Positions 6,001-34,390 of a DNA stretch of 64,000 bases are shown here, one piece after another. Both the position numbers and the translations under genes were made by a program. The notes beneath the pieces were generated by a model that worked only from the letters and a program-made list of their open reading frames with translations, did no database searches and was not told where the DNA came from. Position 1 is the first letter of the stretch; every line of letters begins with the position of its first letter. Source of the stretch: an uncultured Candidatus Saccharibacteria bacterium (lineage in GTDB: Bacteria; Patescibacteriota; WWE3; UBA101185; UBA10185); the NCBI GenBank assembly GCA_964643995.1, contig CAZXUJ010000003.1, positions 65,927 to 129,926 on the forward strand, written 5' to 3'.

Positions 6001-7153
6001 GCACCAGTAGAAAGTATAAGTCCTGTGGTTGTGACTGTGCCACTGACATCTAGTGTTGAAGTGGGTGTATTAGTCCCCAATCCTAATCTATCAGTGCTGT
6101 CATTCCAGAAGAAGTTAACACTGTCTTGTGCAAAAGTGCTTCCATCCCCAAAATATACTCCGCCGCTTTCTGTTGTTAAACCCGATAAAACATTAATTTC
6201 ATCTGCTGTTGTGGTTACCTCGCTTCCAGCAATTTCGAACGTTCCGTCTAGATTGATAGTTCCTGTAATTTTCAGTGTGCCATTGTATGACAATTCTTCA
6301 GCAAGCCTCACTTCGGTCAAGCCATTATTGTTTACACTTACTACATCTCCTGCTATATCGAGTGAGTTTTCTAGGGTAGTTTCGGTTGTCTCGTCTATCT
6401 GGGCTAATCCTTCCAAACTTGCAACTCCAATTAAGTTGATACTTGGTGTTTGTACGCCTCCTGCTAGGTTAGCTTGCCCTGTAACATCAATTAATCCTGC
6501 TATAGAGACATCTTGACCAACAGTCAAATCTTGTTTTACGATTACATTTTGGAGGAACTCTGATGCTAAATGAAATACCATATCAAATTGTCCTAGTTTG
6601 ACGTTATAACCCAATACATCTGCCGATAATCCGGTTGAATCTACAATTAGGTTTGCTCTTTGAGCTTTTTGTTCGGCATAGCTCAGTACTCTATCTGGTT
6701 GGGAATTTCTCTTAAACCCAAATCCCATAATGGTTAATATGGTTAATGTTACTAACAAGAAAGCAGGTAGTTTGCTTCTTAAGTTTAATGGTTTAGAACT
6801 TGTGGCCTGTATTTTCACTTCTTCGGTAGCTGCCGGAAGTTTAACAGGCTGTTCTATGATTTTGTTTTGAAGGTTGTATTTAACTAATCGTTCTTTCTTG
6901 ATAAGTTTTTCTGTAGTTTCCTTTTGGATTTTCTCGAGACGTAATTCTTCTTTTAACTTTTGAATTTCTTCCAATCTAAAAACTCGGTAACCATTATCTT
7001 GTCTTATGGATGTGATTCGTAAATCTTTTTCATAGTTTCTTAAAGTTGAAGGTGATACTCCCAAAATTTGAGCAGCCTCGGATACATTTAGCATCTTGGA
7101 ATTATCAGCCTGATCTAAAGATTTATTATGTTGGACAGTATTCTTACTCATGA
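1..7153 (-). CDS. Giant membrane-anchored surface protein, 3' end beyond window start (at least 2384 aa). Has an N-terminal MerR-type HTH (about aa 10-55), a coiled/charged linker, one TM helix (LPAFLLVTLTILTIMGFGF) and a huge T/S/G/N/D-rich repetitive ectodomain with three near-identical ~110-aa repeats.
   Basis: Reverse-complement translation from the ATG at 7153-7151 (in-frame TAA 27 nt upstream) reads MSKNTVQHNKSLDQADNSKMLNVSEAAQILGVSPSTLRNYEKDLRITSIRQDNGYRVFRLEEIQKLKEELRL... with no stop down to position 1. The track omits edge-truncated ORFs. All plus-strand ORFs in 1-6500 are low-complexity antisense artefacts sharing repeated motifs. The repeat core DEVIIGGSASLSSKLAVDGDNDEIQLLVQGNGTQT occurs three times (DNA near-identical at ~3035-3135 and ~4695-4795, more diverged at ~960-1030). 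Confidence 0.8.
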
Positions 7154-7348
7154 GGGCAGCTACCTTACAAAAACCCTGTTATTATAGGTTTTTATAATGA
7201 TACAAAGTTTTATAATCAGTGTCAACAGTTTACTCGATCGTAAATTGGTCTTTTTACGCTTTCTCTAAAAGGTTTTGTAAGAAGCACCTCTTGTGCTATA
7301 CCTCCTATATTGTTGACGCTCATACTTATTAAAGGTAAGCTAAATATT

Positions 7349-16234: not shown

Positions 16235-17050
16235 ATGGAACTGTTTCATGGTAACAAACATGCCTTTGAGTTAGATCGTCATATTGTGCATCACTTGTCA
16301 TTGATAGATCGTGATGCATTGGGTGTTCTAGCAATAATACAAATTGGTTCTAATCCTTCTTCCACTAAATACGTCAATTTAAAGCTAGCTTTGTGCTCAA
16401 AACTTGGTATTAAAGCCAATTCTTATCAGTTTTCAGACTCTATGCCTCACGAGGAGCTCTCCTCAGAAATAAGTAAAATTTGTTCTTCCCCAAATACCAG
16501 GAGTGTAATTATCCAATTACCTTTGCCCCAAGGTGTAGCTAAAGAAATTCTTGACCTTATACCTCTAGAAAAAGACGTCGACTCTCTGTCGGATAGTGCC
16601 CAGAAACGTTTTTACTCCGGTGAGTTCACTATGATCCCTCCCGTAGTTCGTGCCGTAAAGTATTTTCTCGAAGCCTGTAGAATGAATGTATCAGGACTTA
16701 CTGTAGATATTGTGGGAAAGGGTTTTCTAGTAGGTGCCCCCTTGGCATATTATCTTGAACACTGTGGCGCTACAGTTACGAGTTATGATGAGCATGACGA
16801 TGTTTCTGAAATAATTTTTAAATCTGATTTAGTAATATCTGCAACAGGTAGGTCAAAACTGCTGCAGGGTGGTAATTTTTACCATGGTACAAGTGTTATT
16901 GATTTTGGATCTTCTGTATTGGAAGGAAAGGTGGTGGGAGATATCAACTTGGATTCCGAAACTAGTCATTTAAAAATTCTTTCTCCATCTCCTGGTGGTT
17001 TAGGTCCATTGGTTGTTAGATTTCTTTTGATTAACCACCTTGGTTTTTAG
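16235..17050 (+). CDS. folD: Bifunctional methylenetetrahydrofolate dehydrogenase / methenyl-THF cyclohydrolase
   Basis: QLPLP motif, GKG..VG.PLA Rossmann segment, SPSPGGLGPLVV C-terminal motif. Confidence 0.9.
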   Translation: MELFHGNKHAFELDRHIVHHLSLIDRDALGVLAIIQIGSNPSSTKYVNLKLALCSKLGIKANSYQFSDSMPHEELSSEISKICSSPNTRSVIIQLPLPQGVAKEILDLIPLEKDVDSLSDSAQKRFYSGEFTMIPPVVRAVKYFLEACRMNVSGLTVDIVGKGFLVGAPLAYYLEHCGATVTSYDEHDDVSEIIFKSDLVISATGRSKLLQGGNFYHGTSVIDFGSSVLEGKVVGDINLDSETSHLKILSPSPGGLGPLVVRFLLINHLGF

Positions 17051-17317
17051 AAATGTAATATTTATTGCTTTCCTATACTGTCATATAGTATCACTATAAA
17101 GTCCACCCATAGCTAACCTATAATTATGGCTTGTGTGATATACTCCTCGAAAACCGAAATTAATATTGCTTAATTTTTTCCTTGCACTGGTATAATATGC
17201 TTTGTTGCAGGTTTAAACTATTAAGTTTAATTAGTAATAGAAGGAAGACCTATATCATTCAAATTTATTGTTATTTTTGAAATTATCTTCCTTGAATCTG
17301 CCCCCCAATGGGTTAAT

Positions 17318-18550
17318 ATGGTCGAATCTTTGTTAAATGAAGTTTATAAGTATGTTGTTCTGTCTACTTTTGTAGTCAGTCAATTCTTTGGAACATTTAT
17401 GTCTGCAGATAAAACTACATCAACAGAGCTGTATGTCGAAAAATATCCTGAAGTGGTTTTGCAAAGTTTATGGTTGGAGTATAGAGATCGTTTTATACAA
17501 AAAGACGGACGTACTGTAGATCGTACCCGTAACTATATAACAACTTCAGAAGGGCAATCCTATTCGTTGTTGCGATCGGTATGGGTTGATGACAAGATAA
17601 CATTCGACCAAAGTCTGAAATGGACAATAAATAATTTACGTAAGAGAGGTGATGACAAACTTTTCGCTTGGAAATGGGGACAGGACAGTCATGGTAAATG
17701 GGATGTACTTGTTGATGAGGGAGGTATCAACACTGCTACCGATTCCGATCAAGATATAGCTTTGGCTCTGATATTTGCATCTAAGCGCTGGAACAATGAA
17801 GATTACCTCAAGCTCGCGCGCGTGATTCTAGACGATATGTGGCGTGTAGAGGTTGAGGAGATTAATGGGCGCCCTTATTTATTGGCAGGGAACTGGTCCA
17901 AGGACGCTCCAGAGCCAACCGTTAATCCATCTTATTACTCTTTTGCAGCATATCCTATATTTGCTGAGGTTGATCCAACTAAAGACTGGATGGGTTTAAA
18001 AGATACTTCATATGAGGTTTTGAACTCGGCAACTTCTGCATCTCTAGGTGTTGAAAACAATATTTTATTGCCTCCAGACTGGGTGGGCCTAGATCCTACG
18101 ACCGCTGAGGTTAAGCTTCCACTTAATGCCGATAAAGACACTAGTTTTTCGGACGATGCTATCAGAATACCTTGGCGAGTAGCTTTGGATTATATGTGGC
18201 ATAAGGACCCTAGGGCTTTGGAATATTTGCAAAAACTGGAATTCCTTTCTAAAGAGTGGGATTCTCGCGGGAAGCTTTTTAGTGGCTATAACCGTGATGG
18301 CTCCCCTAAAACTGATTACGAAAGTGTCAGTACCTATGGTGGTAGTTTAGGTTATTTTCTGCTGGTTGATCCAGAAAATGCTCATGAAATTTTTAATCAA
18401 AAACTTGTTTCAACCTACAACTCAGATACTGAAACACTTCATAACTTCGATGAATTAGCTTATTACGAACAGAATTGGTTATGGTTCGGTATTGCCTTGT
18501 ATCATCATGAATTACCAAATTTGTATTCCGAAATTAAAGGAGAAGAATAA
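17318..18550 (+). CDS. Glycoside hydrolase family 8 endoglucanase (BcsZ-like)
   Basis: GH8 signature ATDSDQDIALALIFASKRW. TSEGQSYSLL. N-terminal hydrophobic anchor. Confidence 0.85.
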   Translation: MVESLLNEVYKYVVLSTFVVSQFFGTFMSADKTTSTELYVEKYPEVVLQSLWLEYRDRFIQKDGRTVDRTRNYITTSEGQSYSLLRSVWVDDKITFDQSLKWTINNLRKRGDDKLFAWKWGQDSHGKWDVLVDEGGINTATDSDQDIALALIFASKRWNNEDYLKLARVILDDMWRVEVEEINGRPYLLAGNWSKDAPEPTVNPSYYSFAAYPIFAEVDPTKDWMGLKDTSYEVLNSATSASLGVENNILLPPDWVGLDPTTAEVKLPLNADKDTSFSDDAIRIPWRVALDYMWHKDPRALEYLQKLEFLSKEWDSRGKLFSGYNRDGSPKTDYESVSTYGGSLGYFLLVDPENAHEIFNQKLVSTYNSDTETLHNFDELAYYEQNWLWFGIALYHHELPNLYSEIKGEE

Positions 18551-18551
18551 T

Positions 18552-20183
18552 ATGTTCCATAAAACGTCTCATGAAATAATATCCCAACGTACTACCGTTT
18601 CTAGAGTGGTATTGGTTGCTTTCAGTTTAATATCTTTAGTCTATCTAGGCTGGTGGTTTGATTTTAGTAATTCGGGAAACATATTTTTGTACTCGATATT
18701 AGTTCTAGGAGAGATTTATCATGTCTGGCAGGCTTTAGGTTATATATATACTATTTGGGATCAGCAAGAGGTGAAATCGCCGGAATTAACTGAATTTCCA
18801 CGAGTTGATGTTTTTATAACTGTTGTAAATGAACCTATGAACATAATGCGTCGCACTATTGAGGCTGCTATAGCTATGGATTACCCCAATTTTAGAGTAT
18901 TAATATTAAACGATGGTTATGTTGGTGGTGCCAAACACTGGAAAGAAATCGCCGACTTAGCAAAAGAATACGACATTGACGTTATAACTCGTCGTGTGCC
19001 TGGTGGCTTCAAAGCAGGCAATGTCAATAATGGTTTGTCACTGACCGAAGCACCTCTTTTTGCATTATTTGATGCAGACCATGTTCCGCATAAAGATTTC
19101 TTAAAGAAGACTGTTGGTTTCTTTACTGATCCTAAAATGGCGATTATTCAAACTCCGCAATACTATGAAAATAAAGACGATAGCTTTTTAACCACTGCTG
19201 CTTGGGAACAGCAAGAGTTATTCTTTGGACCTATTTGTAGAGGTAAAAATCGTATGAACGCCACCTTTTGGTGTGGCACTAATGCTGTGATAAGACGTGA
19301 AGCACTGGCGCAGGTTGGGGGAGTACCGGAGAATAATATTGCCGAGGATTTTATAGCTTCAATGTTTATTCATGAAAAAGGTTGGAAGACATTGTTTTTA
19401 CCCGAAATATTAGCCCAGGGTTTAGCTCCGCATAACCTACAGGAATACGCGAAACAACAATTTCGTTGGGCACGTGGCTCCCTTGAAATTATCTTTAAGT
19501 ACAACCCGCTTTTCAGAAGAGGCCTCACTTTTGCCCAGAAAATGCAATACTTGTACTCCGCAGGATATTACTTGAACGGTTTAGTAGTTCTTCTAGATGC
19601 TTTAATTCCTGTTGTAGTTCTGATGACTGGATTGAAGCCTGTCAATGAAACATCAACTAATTTCATAGCATTTTTCTTTCCATTTATGTTCCTGACTATG
19701 TACATATTAATGGCGTCAACCGACCATACTGTTACATTTAGAGCATTGCAGTTATCCATTAGCTCGTTTTATGTGTTTATAAAGGCAATGTTTTCAACAA
19801 TTTTTGGTATAAAGGTTAAATTTGAGGTTACCTCTAAGGAGGCCCGCTCAGGCAACTTTATCAAACTTGCCATGCCTCACTTCACATATATTGCTATTTC
19901 AATTGTAGCTATAGTTGTTGGCATATTACGAGAAGGACTGATACCATCAGTTATAACCAATATCTCTTGGATAATATTCAATATAGTCTTTTTCTCTGGT
20001 TTTATTAAGGTCGCTTACCCATGGAAGGAAACCTTCCTTTTTAATGTTAGTCACCTCAAAAATGTTATTGTCTCAGAAATTGTTGCGAAGGCCAAGGTTC
20101 CCTTTATACGTGAGTCTGCATACGTTTTTGCAGAGGAGAAAATTGAGGTGAAAAATGACACCACTAGAGCTGAGCAGAAGTAA
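18552..20183 (+). CDS. Processive family-2 glycosyltransferase, cellulose-synthase-like (BcsA-like without a PilZ domain)
   Basis: DAD...DxD. IAEDF (TED-like). QQFRWARG (QxxRW). TM helices at both ends. Strong RBS AAAGGAGAAG before the ATG at 18552. The track start at 18492 overlaps the GH8 gene. Confidence 0.85.
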   Translation: MFHKTSHEIISQRTTVSRVVLVAFSLISLVYLGWWFDFSNSGNIFLYSILVLGEIYHVWQALGYIYTIWDQQEVKSPELTEFPRVDVFITVVNEPMNIMRRTIEAAIAMDYPNFRVLILNDGYVGGAKHWKEIADLAKEYDIDVITRRVPGGFKAGNVNNGLSLTEAPLFALFDADHVPHKDFLKKTVGFFTDPKMAIIQTPQYYENKDDSFLTTAAWEQQELFFGPICRGKNRMNATFWCGTNAVIRREALAQVGGVPENNIAEDFIASMFIHEKGWKTLFLPEILAQGLAPHNLQEYAKQQFRWARGSLEIIFKYNPLFRRGLTFAQKMQYLYSAGYYLNGLVVLLDALIPVVVLMTGLKPVNETSTNFIAFFFPFMFLTMYILMASTDHTVTFRALQLSISSFYVFIKAMFSTIFGIKVKFEVTSKEARSGNFIKLAMPHFTYIAISIVAIVVGILREGLIPSVITNISWIIFNIVFFSGFIKVAYPWKETFLFNVSHLKNVIVSEIVAKAKVPFIRESAYVFAEEKIEVKNDTTRAEQK

Positions 20184-21654
20184 CAAAATTGCTAACAGAA
20201 TAATTGTTTTCGCCTTGATTGTTGTTGGATGTTTAGTCAGATTATGGAACTTGGATAAAGAAGGTCTTCGTTTGGATGAGTCCCAAAGTGTTTGGCAGGC
20301 AATGCACTCTATGGAGTTTATAGGCAAGTACATGGTAAAGAATGTACATTTACCTCTGCACAATACCTTGTTGCACTTTTGGATTCAGTTTTTCGGGTCA
20401 TCTGAGATAGCTGTTAGAATTCTTGCAGTTATACCTGGTGGTTTATCTTTAATAGCCTTTTATTACTTAGCCAAGGAATATTTTGAGGATTTCGCTAAAC
20501 TAAAATTTGCGCTATTTTTGGCCGTTGTATCACCATTTTGGGTTTGGTTTAGTAGAGAAATACGTATGTATTCCTTGCTTGCCTTGTTGTCCACTTTGTC
20601 ATATCTATTTTTTATCAGAATATTGAAATATGACAACAAACGAAATTATTTTTTTTACTTTCTAGTAAATTTAGTAGGTTTGTATACACATTATTATTTT
20701 TCGCTAGTTTTATTAGTTAAAGTTGTTTTCTTTTTCATGTCTATAAAAAGCACATATTTTGGGGTATCTAACAAGGCAAAAGTGTTGTTGAAGTTAGGTA
20801 TTGTAGCTACAACTTTAGTGGCCTTACTATCTCCATGGGTTTATTTTTTGTTAAGTTCCCATGGCTCAGGTAGTTTGGCTCCTGAGTTGGGTAATCCCAA
20901 TGCTTTTGATATGTTTGTTTCCTACTTTAATTTCATCTTTGGTTTCCAACAGGAAGTTGTTTCGTCTGTAATATTAGGTCTCTGGCCAATAGTTTTTTTG
21001 ATGGGTTTTGTATTTCTCACCAAGCGCCATAATCCCTTTAATCCTTTGGTAATGCTGTCGGTTTTAGGTACATTTTTGCCAGTAGCCTTAATACTGTTTA
21101 TAAGTATTTATTTCAAACCAATCTATTTAACGCGTTACTTAACCCCTGTGACACCGATGTTATATATTTTAATTGTTTGGGCCGTTTATGAGTTGAAGGG
21201 CCGTTTCCGTAATCTGGTTGTGTTAGTATTTGGCATTGGCATGGTTATTGCGCTTTACTTGCAGCTAAATGATAATCGTAGTCCCATACGTGAAGATTAT
21301 CGTACTGCGGTAGAGTTCATAAATACAGAGACAACATACCGTGACATTGTTCTTATAGCGCCTCCATACAACATATATCCTTTCTATTATTATTACGAAG
21401 GCAAGGCTACAGTCCAGACGTTGCCAAAGTGGGACAAAAGAGACGGAGCAATACCTAGCATATCAACTGAATTAATTGCTAATGATATTGAATCTGCTCG
21501 TGTTGGCCATCAGAAAATGTATTTGTTAATTTCTGAAAATTTGGCGCATACGGTAGAGTTCAAAGAATACATGAACAACAACTTCACAAAAATTTATAAA
21601 AAGGAATTTTCAAAGGATCTCTGGCTTCATGTATACCAGGCAGAGTATGAATAG
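20155..21654 (+). CDS. GT-C fold membrane glycosyltransferase (ArnT/PMT family 39/83-like)
   Basis: About 12 TM helices. DE motif in the first extracytoplasmic loop (GLRLDESQSVW). RBS GAGGTG. Confidence 0.75.
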   Translation: MTPLELSRSNKIANRIIVFALIVVGCLVRLWNLDKEGLRLDESQSVWQAMHSMEFIGKYMVKNVHLPLHNTLLHFWIQFFGSSEIAVRILAVIPGGLSLIAFYYLAKEYFEDFAKLKFALFLAVVSPFWVWFSREIRMYSLLALLSTLSYLFFIRILKYDNKRNYFFYFLVNLVGLYTHYYFSLVLLVKVVFFFMSIKSTYFGVSNKAKVLLKLGIVATTLVALLSPWVYFLLSSHGSGSLAPELGNPNAFDMFVSYFNFIFGFQQEVVSSVILGLWPIVFLMGFVFLTKRHNPFNPLVMLSVLGTFLPVALILFISIYFKPIYLTRYLTPVTPMLYILIVWAVYELKGRFRNLVVLVFGIGMVIALYLQLNDNRSPIREDYRTAVEFINTETTYRDIVLIAPPYNIYPFYYYYEGKATVQTLPKWDKRDGAIPSISTELIANDIESARVGHQKMYLLISENLAHTVEFKEYMNNNFTKIYKKEFSKDLWLHVYQAEYE

Positions 21655-21659
21655 CTAAA

Positions 21660-23738
21660 CTAATGTTTCACGAAAACAATAAGTTTCTCAGTATCTATTG
21701 TCTTTCCCTCTAGATCTTGTGCCACTACTTCAACATTGTATGGTCCCGAGCCATTCCAGGACCACTGATCAAATTCAATCTTAGCTTGTTTGATATCATC
21801 GCTCTTAGAATCCTCAAGATCAATTTTTCTACCATCTACCATAATGTAGGCTGTGTAGTTTGATCTAGCCAGTCCAGGAATATATGCTTTTAATTTTTTT
21901 TCTCCAGATATTATTGCACCACTTTGTGGTTCTTCCACTACCAGCTTAATCTCTGATATCTCTAGAGGCTTTGTGTTTGTAGCCTCTGTCACTTCGACGT
22001 TATTATTATCACTCATATCAATTGAATCTTCAGGTATAGTAATGGTTTCCTCATTTGTTATGTTTGTATCAATGGCACCTTCAACCTGTGGGCTATTAAC
22101 GCCAGTTATGAAAACTATGTAGTTGCTTTTCGCACCAGCGCTACCATTAAAGTTTCCCCCAAGCTCAACTAGCCCTTTTGTGAAATCCTTTTTGTATAGT
22201 ACGAAATTAGTGTCATTTGTCATAATTTGTTCGTTAAGCCTTTCCCAATCACGTAACCACTCTGGTAATCTCGTAGCTCTATAGTCGTATCCTACATATA
22301 CTGAACTTTCTTCTGTTATTGCAAAAGATAAATGATTGTCAAGGAAAGCCAGTTTATGATTGTTTGCAGTAACTATCTCTGCCTCGTTTAGTATTACTTT
22401 TGGTAATTCTTTGATGATATAGTCCCGATCATAAAAAATCTTTTGTCCTACTTTTGCATATGTTAGGTAATAGTTGCTTGGCGATTTAATCTCGATACCG
22501 CTAATATTAACTGAAGGTTGTTCTGCATCGATTTCAACTCCGTTTTCGATATTAATTACTGGAGGAACTTGTTCTATGATATTTTCCACTTCTTGAACTA
22601 TTACCTCCGGTGAAACATCGTTGCTGCCTTCTACCAAACCTTGAATAAAGTTCCTTATTAGAACTTGTAGCGCCGGTTTGTTTTGAGGAGTGTAATCGTC
22701 GTCTTTTTCACCTCCTGGGTTGTCTCCCAAATTCCAGTCCCACATATGGACACCGTTCATATATGACTTTTTTTCCCAATAAGTGAAAAGAGCATTGTAA
22801 AGGTCTACTTGTTCTTGTAGATCAACCTCTGCCTTTACCTTATAATCACCAGGTTCTTCAGCTGCACCATCCATACTTCTATAGCCAATTTCTGTAAATA
22901 CAATTGGCTTTTTATACTTGTTATAAAGAGGCTCTACAAAATTTTTATCTATTACCTTCCAGTTGTTTTGAAGACTCTCCGCTGTATATTTGTCATCCTC
23001 TGACAATGGATAGTACATAGATAAACCTATTACATCCAGCGCATCCCAAAAAGGGAGAGTAGTCTCATCGAAATTCGTGGCACTAGCATTAGCATTAAAG
23101 GTCAATGTGCCACTATATACTTTCCTAGTCTCCGTGATTATATCTCGCCAATATGGTTCGTTGGTTTTGTTAGTGCTTAATGCAAATAGTTCTGATCCAA
23201 GAGAGAACTGTTCAACTTTATAACTTTGTGACAGTTTGGCGTAATGTAGAATCATACTTTTGTAGTTTTTGAAAAAGGTAGCCTTATCAGTTGGATTCAT
23301 TTTCGCACGCCATTCTCCAGTTTTAGGATCAATGTGTGGCTTTATAAAGACTTTTAGACCAATAGAATGTGCACGATTTATAGTGTATATGAGTAGTTCG
23401 TCAGCCGGTGTACGCTCTTTTCTGTCTACGTTTGAGGTAGTCAATGTATCGGTGTGCCATCCCGGGGTTATAGTTACGTAATTAGCACCTGTAGCCTTTA
23501 TATCTTCAAGAGATTTATTAACCTGTCCAATTTCTTGGTTTACAAGTCTCAGGGTAATACCTTTTTGATCCCATTGTACCGCGGCAGTAACAAAGCGGGG
23601 AGTAGTAAGGGCAAAAAGTGTCAGTACTATTAATGCTGTAAATACAGACGTTAATTTTTTAGACACTAAATGATTATAATGTGTATAAAAATTTATGCAA
23701 CTACAAGTCATACATAATATGACAAAAATACGATACAA
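21660..23738 (-). CDS. Secreted clan GH-A glycoside hydrolase (GH5/GH113-like) with C-terminal Ig-like domains. The start may be the internal ATG at 23711 or the GTG at 23666.
   Basis: NEP acid/base motif (NKTNEPYW) and FTEIGY nucleophile motif. Signal-peptide-like N-terminus. Convergent with the GT-C gene. Confidence 0.75.
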   Translation of the reverse strand: MYRIFVILCMTCSCINFYTHYNHLVSKKLTSVFTALIVLTLFALTTPRFVTAAVQWDQKGITLRLVNQEIGQVNKSLEDIKATGANYVTITPGWHTDTLTTSNVDRKERTPADELLIYTINRAHSIGLKVFIKPHIDPKTGEWRAKMNPTDKATFFKNYKSMILHYAKLSQSYKVEQFSLGSELFALSTNKTNEPYWRDIITETRKVYSGTLTFNANASATNFDETTLPFWDALDVIGLSMYYPLSEDDKYTAESLQNNWKVIDKNFVEPLYNKYKKPIVFTEIGYRSMDGAAEEPGDYKVKAEVDLQEQVDLYNALFTYWEKKSYMNGVHMWDWNLGDNPGGEKDDDYTPQNKPALQVLIRNFIQGLVEGSNDVSPEVIVQEVENIIEQVPPVINIENGVEIDAEQPSVNISGIEIKSPSNYYLTYAKVGQKIFYDRDYIIKELPKVILNEAEIVTANNHKLAFLDNHLSFAITEESSVYVGYDYRATRLPEWLRDWERLNEQIMTNDTNFVLYKKDFTKGLVELGGNFNGSAGAKSNYIVFITGVNSPQVEGAIDTNITNEETITIPEDSIDMSDNNNVEVTEATNTKPLEISEIKLVVEEPQSGAIISGEKKLKAYIPGLARSNYTAYIMVDGRKIDLEDSKSDDIKQAKIEFDQWSWNGSGPYNVEVVAQDLEGKTIDTEKLIVFVKH

Positions 23739-23753
23739 TAATTCAAATACGTT

Positions 23754-24593
23754 ATGTTTTTAACTCGAAGTCAAAAAGCTTTTGATAACCTTGAAAGAAA
23801 ACTCGAACTACCTATGCTTTTTGCGACCTTGTTATTGCTAGGTTTGATCATACTTAGAAACAGCTTTTTATTAGACCCTTCTGTTCTGCTAATTTTCGAT
23901 ATAGCTGAACTTAGTCTATGGTTACTATTTTTTGTTGAGCTTATTACTATGACAATGCTTTCTCAGGATCGCTTTCTCTATTTAAAGACTCACTGGTACA
24001 ATATTTTTACGGTCCTATTGCCGCTTTTGCGTATAGCCGCCCTTGATCAAAGTGCGGCGCTGTTTTATCTTATAGGCCCTCTCTCATACTTCTATAATGT
24101 TATTTTTATATTATTTGGTGCTGATACTTTGTTTGTACGCATTATCCCTTTAATTTTTAGAGGTCTCGCTACTATGAAAGTGCTTTTCCGAAGGCATAGG
24201 CTTGATTACATTATTTATGTTATTTTCATAGTCGTAGTGTTTTTGGGTCCTCTCGCTGCAGTGTTTGAACGTAACAATCCTGATGCTAACTTGAGAACTG
24301 TCACCGATGGCATCTGGTGGGCATTTATTAGTATGTCGACTGTTGGCTACGGGGATTTTTTCCCAGTTACATTGCAAGGTAGACTAATAGGTCTTGTAGT
24401 CATAGTTCTTGGTGTTACCTTATTCTCTCTTCTTACGGCACATGTTTCCTCAATTATGGTAGAGGACAGTGAAAATGCTGAACGTGCCGACATTAGACAG
24501 CATTTAGATGCCATTGAGCATACTCTTGAGCATTTAGAAGAAGAGATTGAGGAAGAGCACCACCCCAAATATCGTAAACATCCCAAAAGTTAA
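23754..24593 (+). CDS. Potassium channel protein (TVGYGD selectivity filter) with an S4-like arginine-rich helix
   Basis: MSTVGYGDFFPVT pore motif. RIIPLIFRGLATMKVLFRRHR segment. Confidence 0.85.
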   Translation: MFLTRSQKAFDNLERKLELPMLFATLLLLGLIILRNSFLLDPSVLLIFDIAELSLWLLFFVELITMTMLSQDRFLYLKTHWYNIFTVLLPLLRIAALDQSAALFYLIGPLSYFYNVIFILFGADTLFVRIIPLIFRGLATMKVLFRRHRLDYIIYVIFIVVVFLGPLAAVFERNNPDANLRTVTDGIWWAFISMSTVGYGDFFPVTLQGRLIGLVVIVLGVTLFSLLTAHVSSIMVEDSENAERADIRQHLDAIEHTLEHLEEEIEEEHHPKYRKHPKS

Positions 24594-24603
24594 CGTCTCC
24601 TTT

Positions 24604-25720
24604 TTATAGTCCAAAATCATTTATGTTTAATTCTTTATGCAACATGCTACTTTCGCTAGTAGGCGTGTTTGTTGTTGTGGTTATGTTTATTGCTGATATG
24701 CTGGTATTTTCGGTTTCTGCAGTTTTTGTTATTGTGACGTCATTCTCCGGTCTTACACTTGATGGATTACCTGCGGAGTCGAGAGCTCTTACAGCATAGT
24801 ATGGTGTTCTATCACAGTGGTCATTGTCTATCGCATCTACAAATGTGTGTTCTTCGTTTGAGCCTATATCTATGGTCTCAACCCTAGTATCCTCATAGGC
24901 CTCAACCTCGGTATTGCTTGCTCTATAGATCTCCAAATAGGACGTTTCCCATTATGCTAATAGCAAGTACACCCAATAATAGTGTCGAGATCATTGCTAA
25001 AAGGGTAGTCTTTTTAATACTGCCTAAGATTCCAGCCGCTACAAAGATTAATACCGTCAAAAAGACTGTTACAACAATTATTTACCAGATTGGGTTGGCT
25101 CCAGTGTCAGGTAATCTATGTGAAGTGCTAGCTAAGACTTCTTCTATCTCTATATCAACAGTAACTTCTGTTTTTGGGGACTTGTTTAGTCTGTCTACCT
25201 CTACTTAGACTTCGGTTCCTACAAACACTCTATCTCCTGTATTGCCCTCATTCGCTAAAATATTAACCTGCCCGAATTTACCTTGGGCCCAAGCCAGGTC
25301 GTTATAGATAACTGGGGCCACCTCACTATTGATTTTTGTTTTATACGTCAACTATAATTTCACCTAGTTCCCTGCTTCCAATAGAACAATTACCGGGAGA
25401 TGCATAGGTAGGTTCTGTGACTACTATGTCTTTTATATTTCCGTGAATATTTGAGTTAGCTGTCCACGAACTATTTAAGTACTCAAAACCTTCTGGGGGA
25501 AGATCAATCAAAGATACATCTTCCAAACTGCTTATGGCTTCAAGTTTCAGTGTATAGGTAACCTAAGTATAAGGTATATAGTTTTCCTTTAGGTTTTCTC
25601 TAGCCCAAATTCCAGGGGCACCTTGGGTGTCATAGACTCTTATTCTTGCTGGTTCTCCTGAGATAAATGTGAGAGCTACCAATAATGTAAGTCTTAAAAT
25701 TGTTTTAGGCTACTAATTCA
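24604..25720 (-). pseudogene. Fragmented, probably decayed gene for a secreted Fn3/Ig-like protein. It shows only as in-frame stops and short ORFs.
   Basis: Minus-strand reading gives a signal-peptide-like ILRLTLLVALTFISGEPARIRVYDTQGAPG then a TAG stop. Short ORFs follow (25341..25526, then one with a TTG start at 24936) containing an Fn3-like C-terminus YYAVRALDSAGNPSSV. There is no continuous frame. Confidence 0.45.
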
Positions 25721-25760: not shown

Positions 25761-26474
25761 CTATAGCGTGTAATCTTTGCCGATAAATATTATAATATCG
25801 GTTTCAGTAGGGTTTTCACCACTTGGTAATTTGGCAATTTCCGCGTCTAGTAATGTTGAAATTTTATTCATTATGCCCGCATCGAGGCTCTTATTATTTA
25901 TCACTAGTGTTCTTTCATACTCGCTTTTTGCATTTCCAATATTGATGACCTCGAATTTAATGTTTTCGTACTCTGTGCTAAGTTTTGTACTCAAAGCAGA
26001 AGCTAATCCCTGGGTGCCTGTGCTGTTATATATGCTTACTTTTATAGGTGCTATTACACCCTCTACATTTTCTTCAGGTTTTATCTCTCCCTGTTCGGTT
26101 AGTTTTATAGTCATAGTCTCGATGATTTTGTTGCTATATGGGCGGTATAGTACTGCACGTCTAGCCTTGTTATATATGAGTAACTTGTCACCGTTTTGAG
26201 CGTGAGAAAAAAACACCTGATTATTAAGTTTTTCTACGTCCTTCACCGTGGCTATTACTGGAATCTCGTCGTAGGGAACCTCTGCTAGCATGGTTACCCG
26301 ATTTAATATTTCGGCAGTGGATATCACCTCAGCTTCTTTGCTTTTGTTGTTATTTGATTTTATCTCCTTGTAGCCAATATACCCAACCAATACTATGAAA
26401 CCTACTAATATTCCCAGAACGATCACCAAACCCGCTTTAGGAAAGCCTCTTTTTGTATTTTCAATTGAAGTCAT
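25761..26474 (-). CDS. Membrane-anchored LytR_C domain protein
   Basis: N-terminal TM helix. C-terminal VSIYNSTGTQGLASALSTKL...FEVINIGNAKS matches the LytR C-terminal domain pattern. Confidence 0.7.
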   Translation of the reverse strand: MTSIENTKRGFPKAGLVIVLGILVGFIVLVGYIGYKEIKSNNNKSKEAEVISTAEILNRVTMLAEVPYDEIPVIATVKDVEKLNNQVFFSHAQNGDKLLIYNKARRAVLYRPYSNKIIETMTIKLTEQGEIKPEENVEGVIAPIKVSIYNSTGTQGLASALSTKLSTEYENIKFEVINIGNAKSEYERTLVINNKSLDAGIMNKISTLLDAEIAKLPSGENPTETDIIIFIGKDYTL

Positions 26475-26480
26475 AGGAAG

Positions 26481-27077
26481 TTAATTATTGGTTGGGTTTT
26501 CACCTACAATAACCATCACATCGGCATCTAGAGAATTTTCGATGTCATTATCTTCTTGGAGTTCTGCATTAAGTGTAGCAATCAGGAAAGGTGCCGTTTT
26601 TTTTCCAGTGCCCGTAACAGGTACTACTACAGTTCGTTCGTACAAATCTAGCGCATCACCTGTTGATATATCTAGTTCAAACTTTGAAAAATTGGCGTCA
26701 AGATTGTCGCGCATTTCTCCGGCGACGCCTACTGAATTAGTTCCGTTTAGCACTAACACTTTCACAGGCGCTTCAATATCAATTTCCTTGTTCATAATAT
26801 TGGATTTGTAATCACTTACAACTACATTCTGAGTTTTTAAACTAGGATTGTTTCGAAATTGAACCAGCTCACTTTCAGCTGACATATACATACCATAGTA
26901 ATAAATGGCGATCAGTGAGGAGGGGAGTGCAAAAGCGATCATTATTAAAGTGTTATGTAATCTTGGGGAATGTAGATTCAAGCCATCAAGTTTAACTTTT
27001 TTAACGGGTTTTTTAATGGATGTTTTGGACTTTGGAGCAGGCATATATAAAGTATATATTGTTGAGAAAAAAATCAC
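26481..27077 (-). CDS. Membrane-anchored LytR_C domain protein (tandem paralog)
   Basis: KVLVLNGTNSVGVAGEMRDNL LytR_C-like segment. N-terminal TM helix. Confidence 0.7.
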   Translation of the reverse strand: MIFFSTIYTLYMPAPKSKTSIKKPVKKVKLDGLNLHSPRLHNTLIMIAFALPSSLIAIYYYGMYMSAESELVQFRNNPSLKTQNVVVSDYKSNIMNKEIDIEAPVKVLVLNGTNSVGVAGEMRDNLDANFSKFELDISTGDALDLYERTVVVPVTGTGKKTAPFLIATLNAELQEDNDIENSLDADVMVIVGENPTNN

Positions 27078-31964: not shown

Positions 31965-32038
31965 TGGCAGGGGTGGCAGGAATCGAACCCGCGCAAATGG
32001 TTTTGGAGACCATTGTACTACCACTATACGACACCCCT
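31965..32038 (-). tRNA. tRNA-Trp (anticodon CCA), CCA end encoded
   Basis: 74-nt cloverleaf folded by hand: acceptor AGGGGTG/CACCCCT, anticodon stem ATGGT/ACCAT with loop CTCCAAA, T-loop TTCGATT. Confidence 0.85.
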
Positions 32039-32115
32039 ATGTATATTGCTCTTGCATTATAGAGGTGGGTGAGATTATGAGCAATATTTACTATAAAAAA
32101 TGAAAAAAGTATTTA

Positions 32116-32191
32116 TGGAGCCCACTGGCAGGATTGAACTGCCGACCTCATCCTTACCATGGATGTGCTCTACCAACTGAGCTAAGTGGGC
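32116..32191 (-). tRNA. tRNA-Thr (anticodon GGT), CCA end encoded
   Basis: 76 nt: acceptor GCCCACT/AGTGGGC, D-stem GCTC/GAGC, anticodon loop ATGGTAA, T-loop TTCAATC. Confidence 0.85.
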
Positions 32192-32286
32192 GAGAGATCA
32201 CTTGTCAAACTTACTAAGTCATCTGGTGGCGATTCGCTTCGCTATCGCACATCAGGTTGTAAGTCTCGCTTTGCTCAACAACAACC

Positions 32287-32372
32287 TGGTGCCGGAAGCA
32301 GGATTCGAACCTGCGAAGGCATAAGCCAACTGATTTACAGTCAGTCCCCTTTGGCCACTTGGGTATTCCGGC
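32287..32372 (-). tRNA. tRNA-Tyr (anticodon GTA), long variable arm, CCA end encoded
   Basis: 86 nt: acceptor GCCGGAA/TTCCGGC, anticodon stem ACTGA/TCAGT with loop CTGTAAA, class II variable arm, T-loop TTCGAAT. Confidence 0.85.
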
Positions 32373-32461
32373 ATGCGCTCGCTAAGTCATCTGGAGGCAA
32401 TTCGTCGCTACGTTCCTATTGCACCCCATCTGACTAAGCTCACGATGTTCGCTAAGTCATC

Positions 32462-32536
32462 TGGAGCCACCTGTGAGATTTGAACTCACGACCTATCCCT
32501 TACAAGAGGATTGCTCTACCCCTGAGCTAAGGTGGC
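32462..32536 (-). tRNA. tRNA-Thr (anticodon TGT), CCA end encoded
   Basis: 75 nt: acceptor GCCACCT/AGGTGGC, anticodon loop CTTGTAA, T-loop TTCAAAT. Confidence 0.85.
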
Positions 32537-33064: not shown

Positions 33065-34381
33065 ATGAACGGAACACTTAGAATTCATGGTGGAAAGAAA
33101 CTAAAGGGTGAGGTTGTCCCCATTCCAAATAAGAACGCTATTGTAGCCACATTGCCTGCTTGCATACTTTCTGATGAAACAATTGTTTATTATGATTTAC
33201 CAGACACCTCCGATGTTCAAAAAATATTAAATATTCTACGTAAGTTGGGTGCTGACGTCGTCTCAGACAACCTATCCAAAGTAACAATCTGTTGTAAAAA
33301 CGTTAAAAGTTACGAAATTGATTACGAACTTGGTTCACAATTCAGAGCATCAATAATGTTTGCTGGTCCGTTGTTAGCTCGTTTTGGTCGAGTTTCCGTA
33401 CCAATGCCGGGGGGTTGTGTTCTTGGTGCGCGATCAATTGCTGCTCATATAGACTCTTTTAGCAAAGTAGGAATTAAAGTAGAGTACAAAAAGGACACTA
33501 TAGAATTTATTGCTCCCAAAAAACCACTTAAAGATGAGCTGATTTGGCAAACAGAGGCCAGTGTTACTGCAACAGAAAATGTTGCTATGTATTTAGCAGG
33601 TGTTTCAGGCAATGTGACTATAATTAACGCCGCCTCTGAACCTCATGTTTCACAACTTTTACAAATGCTACAAACCATGGGTGCGAGGATAGACGGTATA
33701 GGATCTAATCGAATTACTATCGAGGGTAATTCTAAGCTTGGTACCTGCGCGTACCATCCAGAACCAGACCAAGTAGATATTGCAGGTTTTATCGTGGCTG
33801 CAGCTATAACCAAGGGAAAGATCAAAATCAAGGGTGCTAACAAGTTTGACATCGTAGGTGGTCTTCTCAATGTATTTGAAAAGTTTAACATCGCAATAGA
33901 TCCAATAGGTGACGATTTAGTTGTTGATGGCTCAGGAGATATTTGGATAGATCTAGAATCATCCGGTTTTCCGCTTGCTGGTAAAGATCTCCCAAAACTT
34001 AATCCACAACCATGGCCGTCTTTTCCTGTAGATGTTTTGCCAGTTATGGCCACCTTAGCTTGCAAAATGGATGGAAAGCTACTTTTACAGAATTGGATGT
34101 ATGAAACCGGATTGGACTTTATACGTGAACTTAACAAACTTGGTGCCAATATCTTTATGTGCGACCCCCAAAGAGTCATTGTTAACGGTCCTATAGAATT
34201 TAAGGGAGGTGGTATTGTTTCTCCTGGGATTATCCAAGCCTGTAAAGCAATATTTCTCGCGGCACTTTGTGACGACGTTGTTACTGTCTTGCACGGTACC
34301 GATGTTTTGAAGAGACGTTATCCTGACATTGTCAGTGTTTATAAGAGTCTTGGTGCTGATATTGAAGAAGTCAAAAATTGA
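33065..34381 (+). CDS. murA: UDP-N-acetylglucosamine 1-carboxyvinyltransferase
   Basis: 438 aa with EPSP-synthase-fold MurA similarity throughout (for example GGCVLGARSIAAHID, active-site Cys region). Confidence 0.9.
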   Translation: MNGTLRIHGGKKLKGEVVPIPNKNAIVATLPACILSDETIVYYDLPDTSDVQKILNILRKLGADVVSDNLSKVTICCKNVKSYEIDYELGSQFRASIMFAGPLLARFGRVSVPMPGGCVLGARSIAAHIDSFSKVGIKVEYKKDTIEFIAPKKPLKDELIWQTEASVTATENVAMYLAGVSGNVTIINAASEPHVSQLLQMLQTMGARIDGIGSNRITIEGNSKLGTCAYHPEPDQVDIAGFIVAAAITKGKIKIKGANKFDIVGGLLNVFEKFNIAIDPIGDDLVVDGSGDIWIDLESSGFPLAGKDLPKLNPQPWPSFPVDVLPVMATLACKMDGKLLLQNWMYETGLDFIRELNKLGANIFMCDPQRVIVNGPIEFKGGGIVSPGIIQACKAIFLAALCDDVVTVLHGTDVLKRRYPDIVSVYKSLGADIEEVKN

Positions 34382-34390
34382 GCTTAAGTT

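What the first reader, a model, noticed from the sequence alone, without database searches (positions are those of the whole stretch)
17318..23738. Cellulose-synthase-like exopolysaccharide module (GH8 + processive GT2 + GT-C, with a convergent secreted GH-A hydrolase)
A GH8 endoglucanase with the family signature sits next to a BcsA-like processive synthase that has D, DxD, TED-like and QxxRW motifs. This pairing is the core of bacterial cellulose operons (bcsZ/bcsA).

Here there is no PilZ domain and no BcsB. Instead a GT-C ArnT/PMT-like enzyme follows, and a secreted GH5/GH113-like hydrolase with Ig-like domains lies convergent.

The module suggests synthesis and trimming of a beta-1,4-linked surface glycan by an organism with an otherwise minimal genome. 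This could be relevant to an episymbiotic lifestyle. The GT-C enzyme could instead glycosylate proteins or lipids.
Basis: partly seen in the sequence, partly recalled or inferred. Interest (0 to 1): 0.55.

Follow-up and report, generated by a model that had tools for sequence, protein, structure and literature searches.

The report
Cellulose-synthase-like cassette with GT-C partner
A tiny-genome (Patescibacteria) bacterium carries a stripped-down cellulose-synthase-like gene set whose usual helper and regulatory parts are replaced by a membrane sugar-transferase of a different class; the same three-gene cassette recurs in hundreds of related species and I found no description of it.

Summary
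Window 17318-23738 encodes a GH8 endoglucanase, a 543-aa BcsA-type processive GT2, a GT-C-fold transferase and a convergent GH113 hydrolase.

The GT2 keeps every catalytic motif (LNDG, FDAD, AED for TED, QQFRW, the FEVTSK gating loop). Its model matches BcsA best (TM-score 0.78). It is the minimal 6-TM core. There is no PilZ, and no BcsB, GGDEF or EAL in any ORF of at least 120 aa in the 64 kb.

The main addition is synteny. GH8, GT2 and GT-C form a near-invariant cassette in Patescibacteria: 75 of 78 species-level loci. Searching back from the GT-C gives the same answer (44 of 48). So the GT-C is an obligate partner, not a bystander.

About half of well-flanked loci also carry a small polyprenyl-phosphate-sugar-synthase-like GT2. 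A similar share carry a second secreted glycanase, usually GH6, sometimes GH5, GH8 or GH113. Most of these share an unannotated ~100-aa module, which the window's GH113 has at its C-terminus.

Best reading: constitutive synthesis and export of a beta-1,4-glucan-like surface polymer, acted on outside the membrane by the GT-C and trimmed by the hydrolases. The product and the GT-C's role are inferred. I rate it a new variant of a known kind, of moderate interest.

The parts
17188..17196 (+). Candidate extended -10 promoter element TGgTATAAT, 122 nt upstream of the GH8 start codon
   Evidence: Read directly from the sequence. The consensus scan found no enrichment of promoter-like sites in the region, so this is only a lead.
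17318..18550 (+). GH8 endoglucanase (BcsZ-like role). The N-terminal hydrophobic segment (aa 13-29) is probably a signal or membrane anchor.
   Evidence: Pfam GH8 7.6e-43. BcsZ NF008305 2.6e-40, 138 bits, below its 299-bit cut-off. Best PDB matches are CelA 1cem (1.3e-23) and BcsZ 3qxf (1e-19), far above chitosanase (1e-9) and most xylanases (2e-5 to 1e-4); Rex8A exo-oligoxylanases reach 3e-10 to 2e-9. TTSEGQSY, A.D.D.DIA, NPSY and DA.R are at least 90% conserved in 67 orthologs. 64 of 67 orthologs have an N-terminal hydrophobic segment. It lies immediately upstream of the GT2 in 66 of 78 loci.
18552..20183 (+). PilZ-less, minimal 6-TM BcsA-type processive GT2 synthase. Motifs: D121 (LNDG), D174xD176 (FDAD), A264-E265-D266 (the TED position), Q302QFRW306, and the gating loop F424EVTSK429.
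   Evidence: TIGR03030 2e-89 over profile positions 56-565 of 714; PgaC 4e-24; NodC 2e-13. PDB sequence search: BcsA 7e-57. AF2 model pLDDT 91.9. Foldseek: BcsA TMq 0.78/0.77, CesA 0.65-0.70, HAS 0.47-0.54. All motifs are at least 90% conserved in 79 sequences.
20155..21654 (+). GT-C-fold glycosyltransferase with about 11 TM helices. It has an RLDESQS motif (D41-E42) in the first outside loop and an outside C-terminal alpha/beta domain with an aromatic-rich conserved motif (aa 403-426). It overlaps the GT2 stop by 29 nt, and GAGGTG lies 5 nt before its ATG.
22680..23522 (-). GH113 (clan GH-A) catalytic domain of the convergent secreted hydrolase. The whole ORF is 21660-23738. The start is uncertain: TTG 23738, ATG 23711, or GTG 23666, which would give a canonical signal peptide.
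   Evidence: Pfam PF22612 1.8e-57. Solved GH113 mannanases 5ylh 4.7e-37 and 3civ 5e-27, with both catalytic Glu aligned (SLGSELF, VFTEIGY). The public gene call uses the 683-aa version. The sequence around the start was read.
21663..21971 (-). C-terminal ~100-aa module ('MOD', aa ~590-692 of the GH113 protein). It is shared with the GH6, GH5 and GH8 hydrolases that flank the cassette in other genomes, and is a candidate glycan- or wall-binding domain.
   Evidence: phmmer and jackhmmer find it in 27 of 78 loci, as MOD-GH6, MOD-MOD-GH6, GH8-MOD, GH5-MOD and GH113-MOD. The partner domains are confirmed by Pfam. MOD itself has no Pfam family and only weak Ig/PKD-like similarity.

Best explanation
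This is the Patescibacteria version of a synthase-dependent beta-glycan system.

1. The GT2 is a minimal, c-di-GMP-independent BcsA-type synthase. It polymerises a UDP-sugar, most likely UDP-glucose into a beta-1,4-glucan, and pushes the chain through its own 6-TM channel.
2. No BcsB or PilZ is involved. Its constant partner is a GT-C-fold enzyme whose active-site loop and C-terminal domain face outward.
3. The GT-C most likely acts on the emerging chain with a polyprenyl-phosphate-linked sugar, decorating it. The donor would come from the small ArnC/AglJ-like GT2 that sits in or next to the cassette in about half of related genomes. That gene is not in this 64-kb window.
4. The membrane-anchored GH8 trims or releases the chain, as BcsZ does.
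5. The secreted GH113-MOD protein fills the slot that GH6/GH5/GH8-MOD enzymes fill elsewhere, and further processes the polymer or the wall.

Shown here: domain identities, motif conservation, folds, absence of PilZ and BcsB, and the synteny. Inferred: the sugar, the linkage, the GT-C's acceptor and donor, and any physical GT2:GT-C complex.
For: GT2 identity:
- CelA profile 2e-89 against PgaC 4e-24 and NodC 2e-13.
- BcsA 7e-57 and TMq 0.78.
- D, DxD, (A)ED, QQxRW and FxVTxK are conserved.
- FxVTxK contacts the uracil and pyrophosphate of UDP, and the 6-TM minimal core is described in PMC8892547.

GT-C:
- The DE motif is invariant.

Cassette conservation:
- GH8 in 75 and GT-C in 75 of 78 genome loci.
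- Starting from the GT-C, 44 of 48 loci have the GT2 and 33 of 35 have the GH8.
- The genes are tightly packed: a 1-nt gap and a 29-nt overlap.

Small GT2:
- Present in 27 of 52 and 11 of 25 well-flanked loci.
- It sits between GH8 and GT-C in L045 and L057.
- Its best family matches are AglJ, ArnC, PgfS and PpgS.

Second hydrolase:
- Present in 29 of 52 and 16 of 25 well-flanked loci, mainly GH6.
- GH6 is also the family of Streptomyces CslZ (PMC9040799).
Against: - No biochemical data exist for any member.
- The GT2 scores below the CelA equivalog cut-off (300 against 699 bits) and has AED where TED is described as strictly conserved.
- This window's accessory hydrolase is GH113, a family known only for beta-mannan hydrolysis.
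- LysM fusions on some GT-C orthologs point to GlcNAc-containing glycans or peptidoglycan.
- The donor-making small GT2 is absent from this window and from the closest WWE3-type loci.
- No flippase was identified.
- Nothing tested here distinguishes decoration from anchoring or a purely structural partner role.
Confidence: 0.62

Rival explanations
1. The GT-C is not a decorating enzyme. It is the co-polymerase or anchoring partner. Either it supplies the membrane contacts that the BcsB tail gives BcsA (or that GlxA gives CslA), or it transfers the finished, lipid-primed chain in one piece to peptidoglycan or another surface acceptor.
For: The 1:1 adjacency is strict and survives gene-order swaps. 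The BcsB TM anchor is indispensable for BcsA, and this GT2 lacks the extra N-terminal helices BcsB packs against (PMC8892547; model). CslA needs GlxA (title and abstract of 10.1101/2023.11.20.567928). C-terminal LysM on some GT-C orthologs suggests it works at the peptidoglycan. PglB/STT3-type transferases that move whole glycans are among the structural neighbours.
Against: The invariant DE motif and basic residues indicate a catalytically active transferase, not a scaffold. The linked small GT2 looks like a monosaccharide-phosphate-polyprenol synthase, which fits single-sugar transfer better. BcsA-type enzymes are not known to need lipid primers.
Confidence: 0.2
2. The GT-C, with the small GT2, is a PMT-like protein O-glycosyltransferase. 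It glycosylates secreted proteins, for example the linkers of the neighbouring hydrolases or surface proteins, and is only co-regulated with the synthase.
Against: The GT-C is present in 75 of 78 loci, but a second hydrolase in only about half. The subfamily is found almost only next to the GT2. The window's GH113 protein has no Pro/Thr-rich linker. The conserved aromatic-rich outside motif would fit glycan binding (my inference).
Confidence: 0.1
3. The polymer is not cellulose-like. It could be a beta-mannan or glucomannan, a GlcNAc- or GlcN-containing beta-1,4 polymer, or a mixed-linkage or beta-1,3 glucan.
For: The window's accessory enzyme is GH113, with solved relatives that are all mannanases. 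There are LysM fusions on the GT-C. The GT2 is below the CelA equivalog cut-off and is AED rather than TED. The CslF6 mixed-linkage synthase is structurally almost as close as CesA. Curdlan and mixed-linkage bacterial synthases were not available for comparison.
Against: The FxVTxK loop indicates a UDP donor rather than GDP. The GH8 is closest to endoglucanases. GH6, the commonest second hydrolase, is a beta-1,4-glycanase family dominated by cellulases. NodC, PgaC and HAS are far more distant.
Confidence: 0.2
4. This is a catabolic locus. GH8 and GH113 degrade environmental or host polysaccharides, as CPR glycoside hydrolases are usually read, and the two transferases are unrelated neighbours.
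For: CPR GH8 and GH5 genes are commonly counted as cellulose-degradation potential (PMC12153355).
Against: GH8 is fixed immediately upstream of a synthase in 66 of 78 loci with near-zero spacing, as bcsZ is with bcsA. No sugar transporter or downstream catabolic gene lies in the cassette. Its flanks in the window are FolD, an M50 peptidase and a K+ channel.
Confidence: 0.03

Closest known systems
Proteobacterial Bcs systems (BcsA-BcsB-BcsZ-BcsC, types I-III)
   Same: A processive GT2 with D, DxD, (T)ED, QxxRW and the FxVTxK gating loop, and the same fold (TMq 0.78). A GH8 endoglucanase is encoded alongside.
   Different: No PilZ domain, so no c-di-GMP gate. No BcsB co-polymerase, BcsC porin or TPR scaffold. 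Only 6 TM helices. The GH8 is membrane-anchored. An obligate GT-C partner is present, which no Bcs type has (PMC8892547).
Streptomyces cslA-glxA-cslZ(-lpmP) apical glycan system
   Same: A monoderm setting. The cellulose-synthase-like enzyme works without BcsB and depends on a different membrane partner. A GH6 hydrolase is linked; GH6 is also the commonest second hydrolase next to the CPR cassette.
   Different: The partner here is a GT-C transferase, not the copper radical oxidase GlxA. GH8 is always present. No LPMO was seen. This window has GH113 rather than GH6.
Clostridial Ccs (CcsA/B/Z plus acetyltransferases) and the pEtN or acetyl cellulose modification systems (BcsG, WssFGHI)
   Same: The concept of a BcsA-type synthase whose product is modified outside the membrane by a dedicated, operon-encoded enzyme (PMC8892547).
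   Different: The proposed modification is glycosylation by a GT-C from a polyprenyl-phosphate sugar, not acylation or phosphoethanolamine. No BcsB homolog is present.
Three-component extracytoplasmic glycosylation systems (GtrA/B/C, ArnC/ArnT, CsbB/YfhO, PgfS/PgfM)
   Same: A GT-C-fold enzyme with an outside DE/Asp loop, plus a small cytoplasmic GT2 resembling polyprenyl-phosphate-sugar synthases. That small GT2 is linked in about half of the loci.
   Different: Known systems modify O-antigen, lipid A, teichoic acids or proteins. They are not known to be coupled to a BcsA-type synthase. No flippase was identified here, and the small GT2 is absent from this window.

Membership tests
BcsA / UDP-forming cellulose synthase catalytic subunit (GT2, TIGR03030) | D, DxD, TED and Q(Q/R)xRW catalytic signature | tested here: met
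   LNDG (D121), FDAD (D174, D176), IAEDF (D266) and QQFRW (302-306) are all at least 90% conserved in 79 sequences. The first residue of TED is Ala.
BcsA / UDP-forming cellulose synthase catalytic subunit (GT2, TIGR03030) | FxVTxK gating loop and a channel-forming TM core (minimal 6 TM) | tested here: met
   FEVTSK at 424-429; F, T and K are conserved. The model has 2+2+2 TM helices. TMq 0.77-0.78 to BcsA.
BcsA / UDP-forming cellulose synthase catalytic subunit (GT2, TIGR03030) | C-terminal PilZ domain (RxxxR, DxSxxG) for c-di-GMP activation | tested here: not met
   The profile match ends at position 565 of 714. There is no PilZ Pfam hit. The model ends in one helix and a disordered tail. All listed homologs (best 120 of 1119) are 419-574 aa.
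BcsA / UDP-forming cellulose synthase catalytic subunit (GT2, TIGR03030) | BcsB partner encoded alongside | tested here: not met
   No BcsB domain in any ORF of at least 120 aa in the window. The only recurrent neighbour families in 78 loci are GH8, GT-C, the small GT2 and the MOD hydrolases.
BcsA / UDP-forming cellulose synthase catalytic subunit (GT2, TIGR03030) | Score above the curated equivalog cut-off | tested here: not met
   300.5 bits against a 699.1 cut-off for TIGR03030; 212 against 992 for NF008558.
BcsA / UDP-forming cellulose synthase catalytic subunit (GT2, TIGR03030) | Product is beta-1,4-glucan made from UDP-glucose | not testable with these tools
   Only indirect support: the accessory GH8, GH6 and GH5 families and the UDP-contacting gating loop.
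GH8 / BcsZ-type endoglucanase | GH8 fold-family match with the catalytic Glu (TSEGQ) and Asp (DAxR) motifs | tested here: met
   Pfam 147 bits against a 24 cut-off. The motifs are invariant. The best solved relatives are endoglucanases.
GH8 / BcsZ-type endoglucanase | BcsZ equivalog cut-off | tested here: not met
   138.5 bits against 299.
GT-C glycosyltransferases (ArnT / PMT / GT39-GT83-like) | Multi-TM GT-C fold | tested here: met
GT-C glycosyltransferases (ArnT / PMT / GT39-GT83-like) | Acidic catalytic motif in the first extracytoplasmic loop | tested here: met
   In RLDESQS, D41 and E42 are invariant in 45 sequences and at least 90% conserved in 67.
GT-C glycosyltransferases (ArnT / PMT / GT39-GT83-like) | Sequence membership of a solved or curated subfamily (ArnT, PMT) | tested here: inconclusive
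   PMT_2 scores 34.9 bits against a 26.1 cut-off. A family profile finds no PDB sequence at E up to 1. It is a separate subfamily, with scores dropping from 237 to 113 bits.
GT-C glycosyltransferases (ArnT / PMT / GT39-GT83-like) | Polyprenyl-phosphate-sugar donor | not testable with these tools
   Inferred from the fold class and from the linked ArnC/AglJ-like small GT2 in related loci.
GH113 | Family match with the two catalytic Glu of clan GH-A | tested here: met
   Pfam 195 bits against a 27 cut-off. Both Glu align to 5ylh.
GH113 | Beta-mannanase or beta-mannosidase activity | not testable with these tools
   In other genomes the same genomic slot is filled by GH6, GH5 or GH8 enzymes, so the specificity here may differ.
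Streptomyces CslA-GlxA-CslZ system | GlxA copper radical oxidase partner | tested here: not met
   The neighbours in the window are FolD, an M50 peptidase and a K+ channel. No such family appears among the recurrent neighbours.

The most novel reading that the evidence does not exclude
Patescibacteria have a distinct class of synthase-dependent glycan machinery. A minimal BcsA-type synthase would be obligatorily coupled to a GT-C enzyme that glycosylates or anchors the nascent beta-glucan outside the membrane. The result would be a decorated or wall-attached cellulose-like polymer, a major surface component in this phylum. If so, many 'cellulases' counted in CPR genomes as carbon-degradation potential are really biosynthetic accessories.
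Probability: 0.35. Interest if true: 0.75.

Novelty: new variant of a known kind. Interest (0 to 1): 0.55.

Why it matters
Cell-envelope biology of the Candidate Phyla Radiation is almost unknown, and their surface is where the episymbiotic lifestyle is played out.

A cassette conserved in at least 585 species-level genomes (a lower bound) points to a common surface polymer. It predicts a cellulose-like glycan made without c-di-GMP control and with a GT-C partner. That gives a concrete, testable target: calcofluor or CBM staining and genetics in cultivable Saccharibacteria, and in vitro reconstitution.

It would also add a third kind of extracytoplasmic cellulose modification, after phosphoethanolamine and acetyl groups.

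Finally, it cautions against reading the cassette-linked GH8 genes, and the GH6, GH5 and GH113 genes found next to the cassette, as evidence that these organisms degrade plant cellulose. The literature commonly does this (PMC12153355).

I found no paper describing the cassette in ten full-text searches.

Tried and rejected
- Promoter and terminator consensus scans of 16900-24700 showed no enrichment over shuffles and were uninformative.
- My first synteny count suggested GH113 near the cassette in about 24 of 80 loci. That was an artefact of the shared C-terminal module. Domain-level re-analysis gave a GH113 catalytic domain in only 3 of 78 loci, and GH6 in 26 of 78.
- A GT-C family profile against PDB sequences gave nothing at E up to 1. 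The fold search was needed instead.
- The MOD profile against PDB sequences gave only sub-threshold Ig/PKD-like hits. The MOD profile against the protein collection returned only short unannotated fragments. Its fold and function therefore stay open.
- The AFDB Foldseek library was unavailable.
- tblastn for the small polyprenyl-phosphate-sugar-type GT2 in the window found nothing. Whether it lies elsewhere on the 151.6-kb source contig could not be checked.
- Considered and rejected: a catabolic cellulase locus; a non-processive GT2 (the QxxRW, channel and gating loop are all present); a spurious GH8 signature (family score 147 bits with conserved catalytic motifs).
- Apparent non-CPR hosts (MAGs labelled Verrucomicrobiia, Acidobacteriaceae, Chloroflexi, Gammaproteobacteria) are mostly on short contigs (2.5-45 kb) or carry doubtful automatic labels; one so-labelled contig is 773 kb. 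I did not count them as evidence for spread outside Patescibacteria.


Full report
**1. What is in the window**

The ORF listing confirms four large ORFs in 17318-23738.
- Three are co-directional on the + strand: 17318-18550 (410 aa), 18492/18552-20183 (563/543 aa) and 20155-21654 (499 aa).
- One is convergent: 21660-23738 (-, 692 aa).
- Packing is tight. The likely GT2 start (ATG 18552) lies one base after the GH8 stop. The third gene overlaps the GT2 stop by 29 nt, with GAGGTG 5 nt upstream of its ATG. The convergent stop codons are 5 nt apart.
- The flanks are housekeeping or unrelated genes: an M50 peptidase, FolD and a K+ channel.
- The exact GT2 protein is in public data on a 151.6-kb contig and in run SRR8893623, with the same gene calls.
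- The closest named relatives are candidate division WWE3 and other Patescibacteria.

**2. Identities**

GH8:
- Pfam 7.6e-43. The BcsZ model gives 2.6e-40, below its equivalog cut-off.
- The best solved relatives are endoglucanases: CelA 1.3e-23 and BcsZ 1e-19. Chitosanases (1e-9) and most xylanases (2e-5 to 1e-4) are far weaker; Rex8A exo-oligoxylanases reach 3e-10 to 2e-9.
- TTSEGQSY, A.D.D.DIA, NPSY and DA.R are at least 90% conserved in 67 orthologs.
- 64 of 67 orthologs have an N-terminal hydrophobic segment, so the enzyme works outside the membrane.

GT2:
- TIGR03030 CelA 2e-89, aligned to profile positions 56-565 of 714. PgaC gives 4e-24, NodC 2e-13 and MdoH 1e-7.
- E. coli BcsA 7e-57 and R. 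sphaeroides BcsA 7e-53. The alignment runs through the post-GT TM helices and stops where PilZ begins.
- LNDG, GAKAGNIN, FDAD, VQ(T/S)PQ, CGTN (the FFCGS position), IAEDF (the TED position), QQxRW and FxxTxK are conserved across 79 sequences.
- According to the Bcs review (PMC8892547), the D,D,D,Q(Q/R)xRW signature marks processive beta-glycosyltransferases. FxVTxK coordinates the uracil and pyrophosphate of UDP. The minimal synthase core shared by BcsA and plant CesA has 2+2+2 TM helices.
- The AF2 model (pLDDT 91.9) has exactly that core, plus one extra C-terminal helix and a disordered tail.
- Foldseek ranks BcsA first (TMq 0.78 and 0.77), then CesA (0.65-0.70), CslF6 (0.67) and hyaluronan synthases (0.47-0.54).

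GT-C:
- By sequence there is only a weak PMT_2 hit (2.3e-8, above the gathering score). A family profile finds no PDB sequence.
- The AF2 model is confident (pLDDT 91.5, pTM 0.91).
- An RLDExQS motif follows TM1. It lies outside by the positive-inside rule. D41-E42 are invariant, as are E135, R137, H179 and R327. This argues for an active enzyme.
- Some orthologs carry a C-terminal LysM domain, which places the C-terminal alpha/beta domain outside the cell.
- That domain has a conserved aromatic-rich motif (PxxxYPxxYYYxG...TxPxW). I infer this would fit glycan binding.

GH113 protein:
- Pfam GH113 1.8e-57.
- Solved GH113 mannanases at 4.7e-37, with both catalytic Glu aligned.
- The start codon is uncertain. 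GTG 23666 would give a classical signal peptide.
- Residues 347-692 have no Pfam family.

**3. Regulatory and partner parts that are missing**

No PilZ, BcsB, GGDEF or EAL domain occurs in any ORF of at least 120 aa in the 64 kb. All listed homologs (the best 120 of 1119) are 419-574 aa, so the lack of PilZ is a family trait.

**4. Comparative genomics: the main new result**

- A scan of one genome per species found at least 585 species with a relative. The 80 best loci were fetched, nearly all Patescibacteria: WWE3, Saccharimonadales, Paceibacteria/Parcubacteria lineages, Doudnabacteria, Levyibacteriota, Blackburnbacteria and Gracilibacteria.
- ORF calling plus profile searches show GH8 in 75 and the GT-C in 75 of 78 loci. 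The exceptions are mostly loci on short or truncated contigs.
- The order is GH8-GT2-GT-C in 65 loci and GH8-GT-C-GT2 in 10.
- The reciprocal test started from the GT-C in metagenome contigs. It found the GT2 within two genes in 44 of 48 loci with enough upstream DNA, and GH8 in 33 of 35. Three of the four exceptions (L154, L160, L161) are low-identity outgroup sequences; the fourth, L100, keeps GH8 with an unlabelled ORF where the GT2 would be.
- The GT-C forms its own subfamily, with scores dropping from 237 to 113 bits.
- Two further members recur in loci with good flanks.
  - The first is a ~256-aa small GT2, in 27 of 52 and 11 of 25 loci. Its best family matches are the polyprenyl-phosphate-sugar synthases AglJ, ArnC, PgfS and PpgS. 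In L045 and L057 it sits inside the cassette.
  - The second is an additional secreted glycanase, in 29 of 52 and 16 of 25 loci. By family: GH6 19+8, GH5 6+1, extra GH8 5+3, GH113 2+5. Pfam confirms GH6 at 1e-63, GH5 at 7e-54 and GH8 at 2e-64.
- These glycanases share a ~100-aa module ('MOD'), single or in tandem. The window's GH113 protein carries it at its C-terminus.
- MOD has no Pfam family and only weak Ig/PKD-like similarity.
- The small GT2 is not in this window.

**5. Mechanism**

Shown: a processive BcsA-type synthase without a c-di-GMP gate or BcsB; an outward-facing active GT-C as its constant genomic partner; an exported GH8; a variable secreted glycanase with a common module.

Inferred:
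- The substrate is a UDP-sugar (gating loop), most likely UDP-Glc, and the product a beta-1,4-glucan. This rests on the closeness to BcsA and CesA and on the accessory GH8, GH6 and GH5 families. GH6 is also the family of Streptomyces CslZ (PMC9040799).
- The GT-C most likely transfers a sugar from a polyprenyl-phosphate donor to the emerging chain. This is by analogy with ArnC/ArnT- and Gtr-type systems, an analogy drawn from my own knowledge of those families.
- Alternatives are a co-polymerase or anchor role replacing the BcsB tail or GlxA, or protein O-glycosylation.
- Evidence against a simple cellulose reading: GH113 is known only as a mannanase family; LysM points to GlcNAc-glycans or peptidoglycan; the motif is AED rather than TED; and the scores are below the equivalog cut-offs.

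**6. Comparison with known systems, and novelty**

- It works like a Bcs or CslA system. It fails the BcsA membership features of PilZ, a BcsB partner and the curated cut-off, so I do not file it as BcsA proper.
- I know of no described Bcs type, the Streptomyces CslA-GlxA-CslZ system or the clostridial Ccs system that contains a GT-C (PMC8892547).
- Ten full-text searches found no description of this cassette in CPR.
- CPR GH8 and GH5 genes are routinely read as cellulose-degradation capacity (PMC12153355).
- The genes themselves are already in public databases with generic names ('cellulose synthase (UDP-forming)', 'glycosyltransferase family 39 protein'). The window is one ordinary member of a large family that, as far as I could find, has not been analysed.

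**7. Verdict**

Novelty: a new variant of a known kind. Interest is moderate (0.55). It would be higher if the GT-C proves to modify or anchor the nascent glucan.

Noticed in passing
window 1-7178 (- strand): A giant ORF of more than 2380 aa runs off the window start. It has an N-terminal MerR-like HTH-looking segment, one TM helix, then a long repeat-rich extracellular part. The + strand 'ORFs' at 238-6516 with no Pfam hits appear to be its antisense shadows.
   Followed up: partly
window 24604-25700 (- strand): A string of short ORFs (39-110 aa) in different frames between the K+ channel gene and the LytR_C genes. It looks like a degraded or frameshifted gene for a secreted protein.
   Followed up: no
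window 25761-26474 and 26481-27077 (- strand): Two tandem membrane-anchored proteins. Each has only a LytR_C domain, from the cell-envelope-related LytR family, and no LCP catalytic domain.
   Followed up: no
window 43626-45134 (+): An unusual fusion: an MtrA-like domain, a thymidylate-synthase-like domain and a pterin-binding DUF4346. It sits next to dCMP deaminase and HIT genes.
   Followed up: no
window 50515-52182 (-): A membrane sulfatase-superfamily enzyme of the LtaS or phosphoethanolamine/phosphoglycerol-transferase type, 30 kb from the cassette. It belongs to the same superfamily as the cellulose pEtN-transferase BcsG, but no linkage was seen in related loci.
   Followed up: no
window 56706-58679 (-): A 657-aa ORF with no Pfam family at all.
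   Followed up: no
related loci, e.g. L012 14034-16472 (-), L013, L017: Some cassette-flanking GH6 enzymes carry two PA14 domains (MOD-PA14-PA14-GH6). L076 has a 1012-aa double-GT2 protein four genes downstream of the cassette.
   Followed up: partly
GT-C orthologs P0131, P0132, P0135, P0136, P0138, P0140, P0144, P0145, P0147, P0148: A C-terminal LysM domain is fused to the cassette GT-C in a subset of lineages (Yonathbacteria-like and others). This suggests the enzyme is tethered to peptidoglycan.
   Followed up: partly
window 33065-35428 (+): MurA and MurB are present, so the organism makes peptidoglycan. Four tRNA genes cluster at 31968-32536 (-).
   Followed up: no
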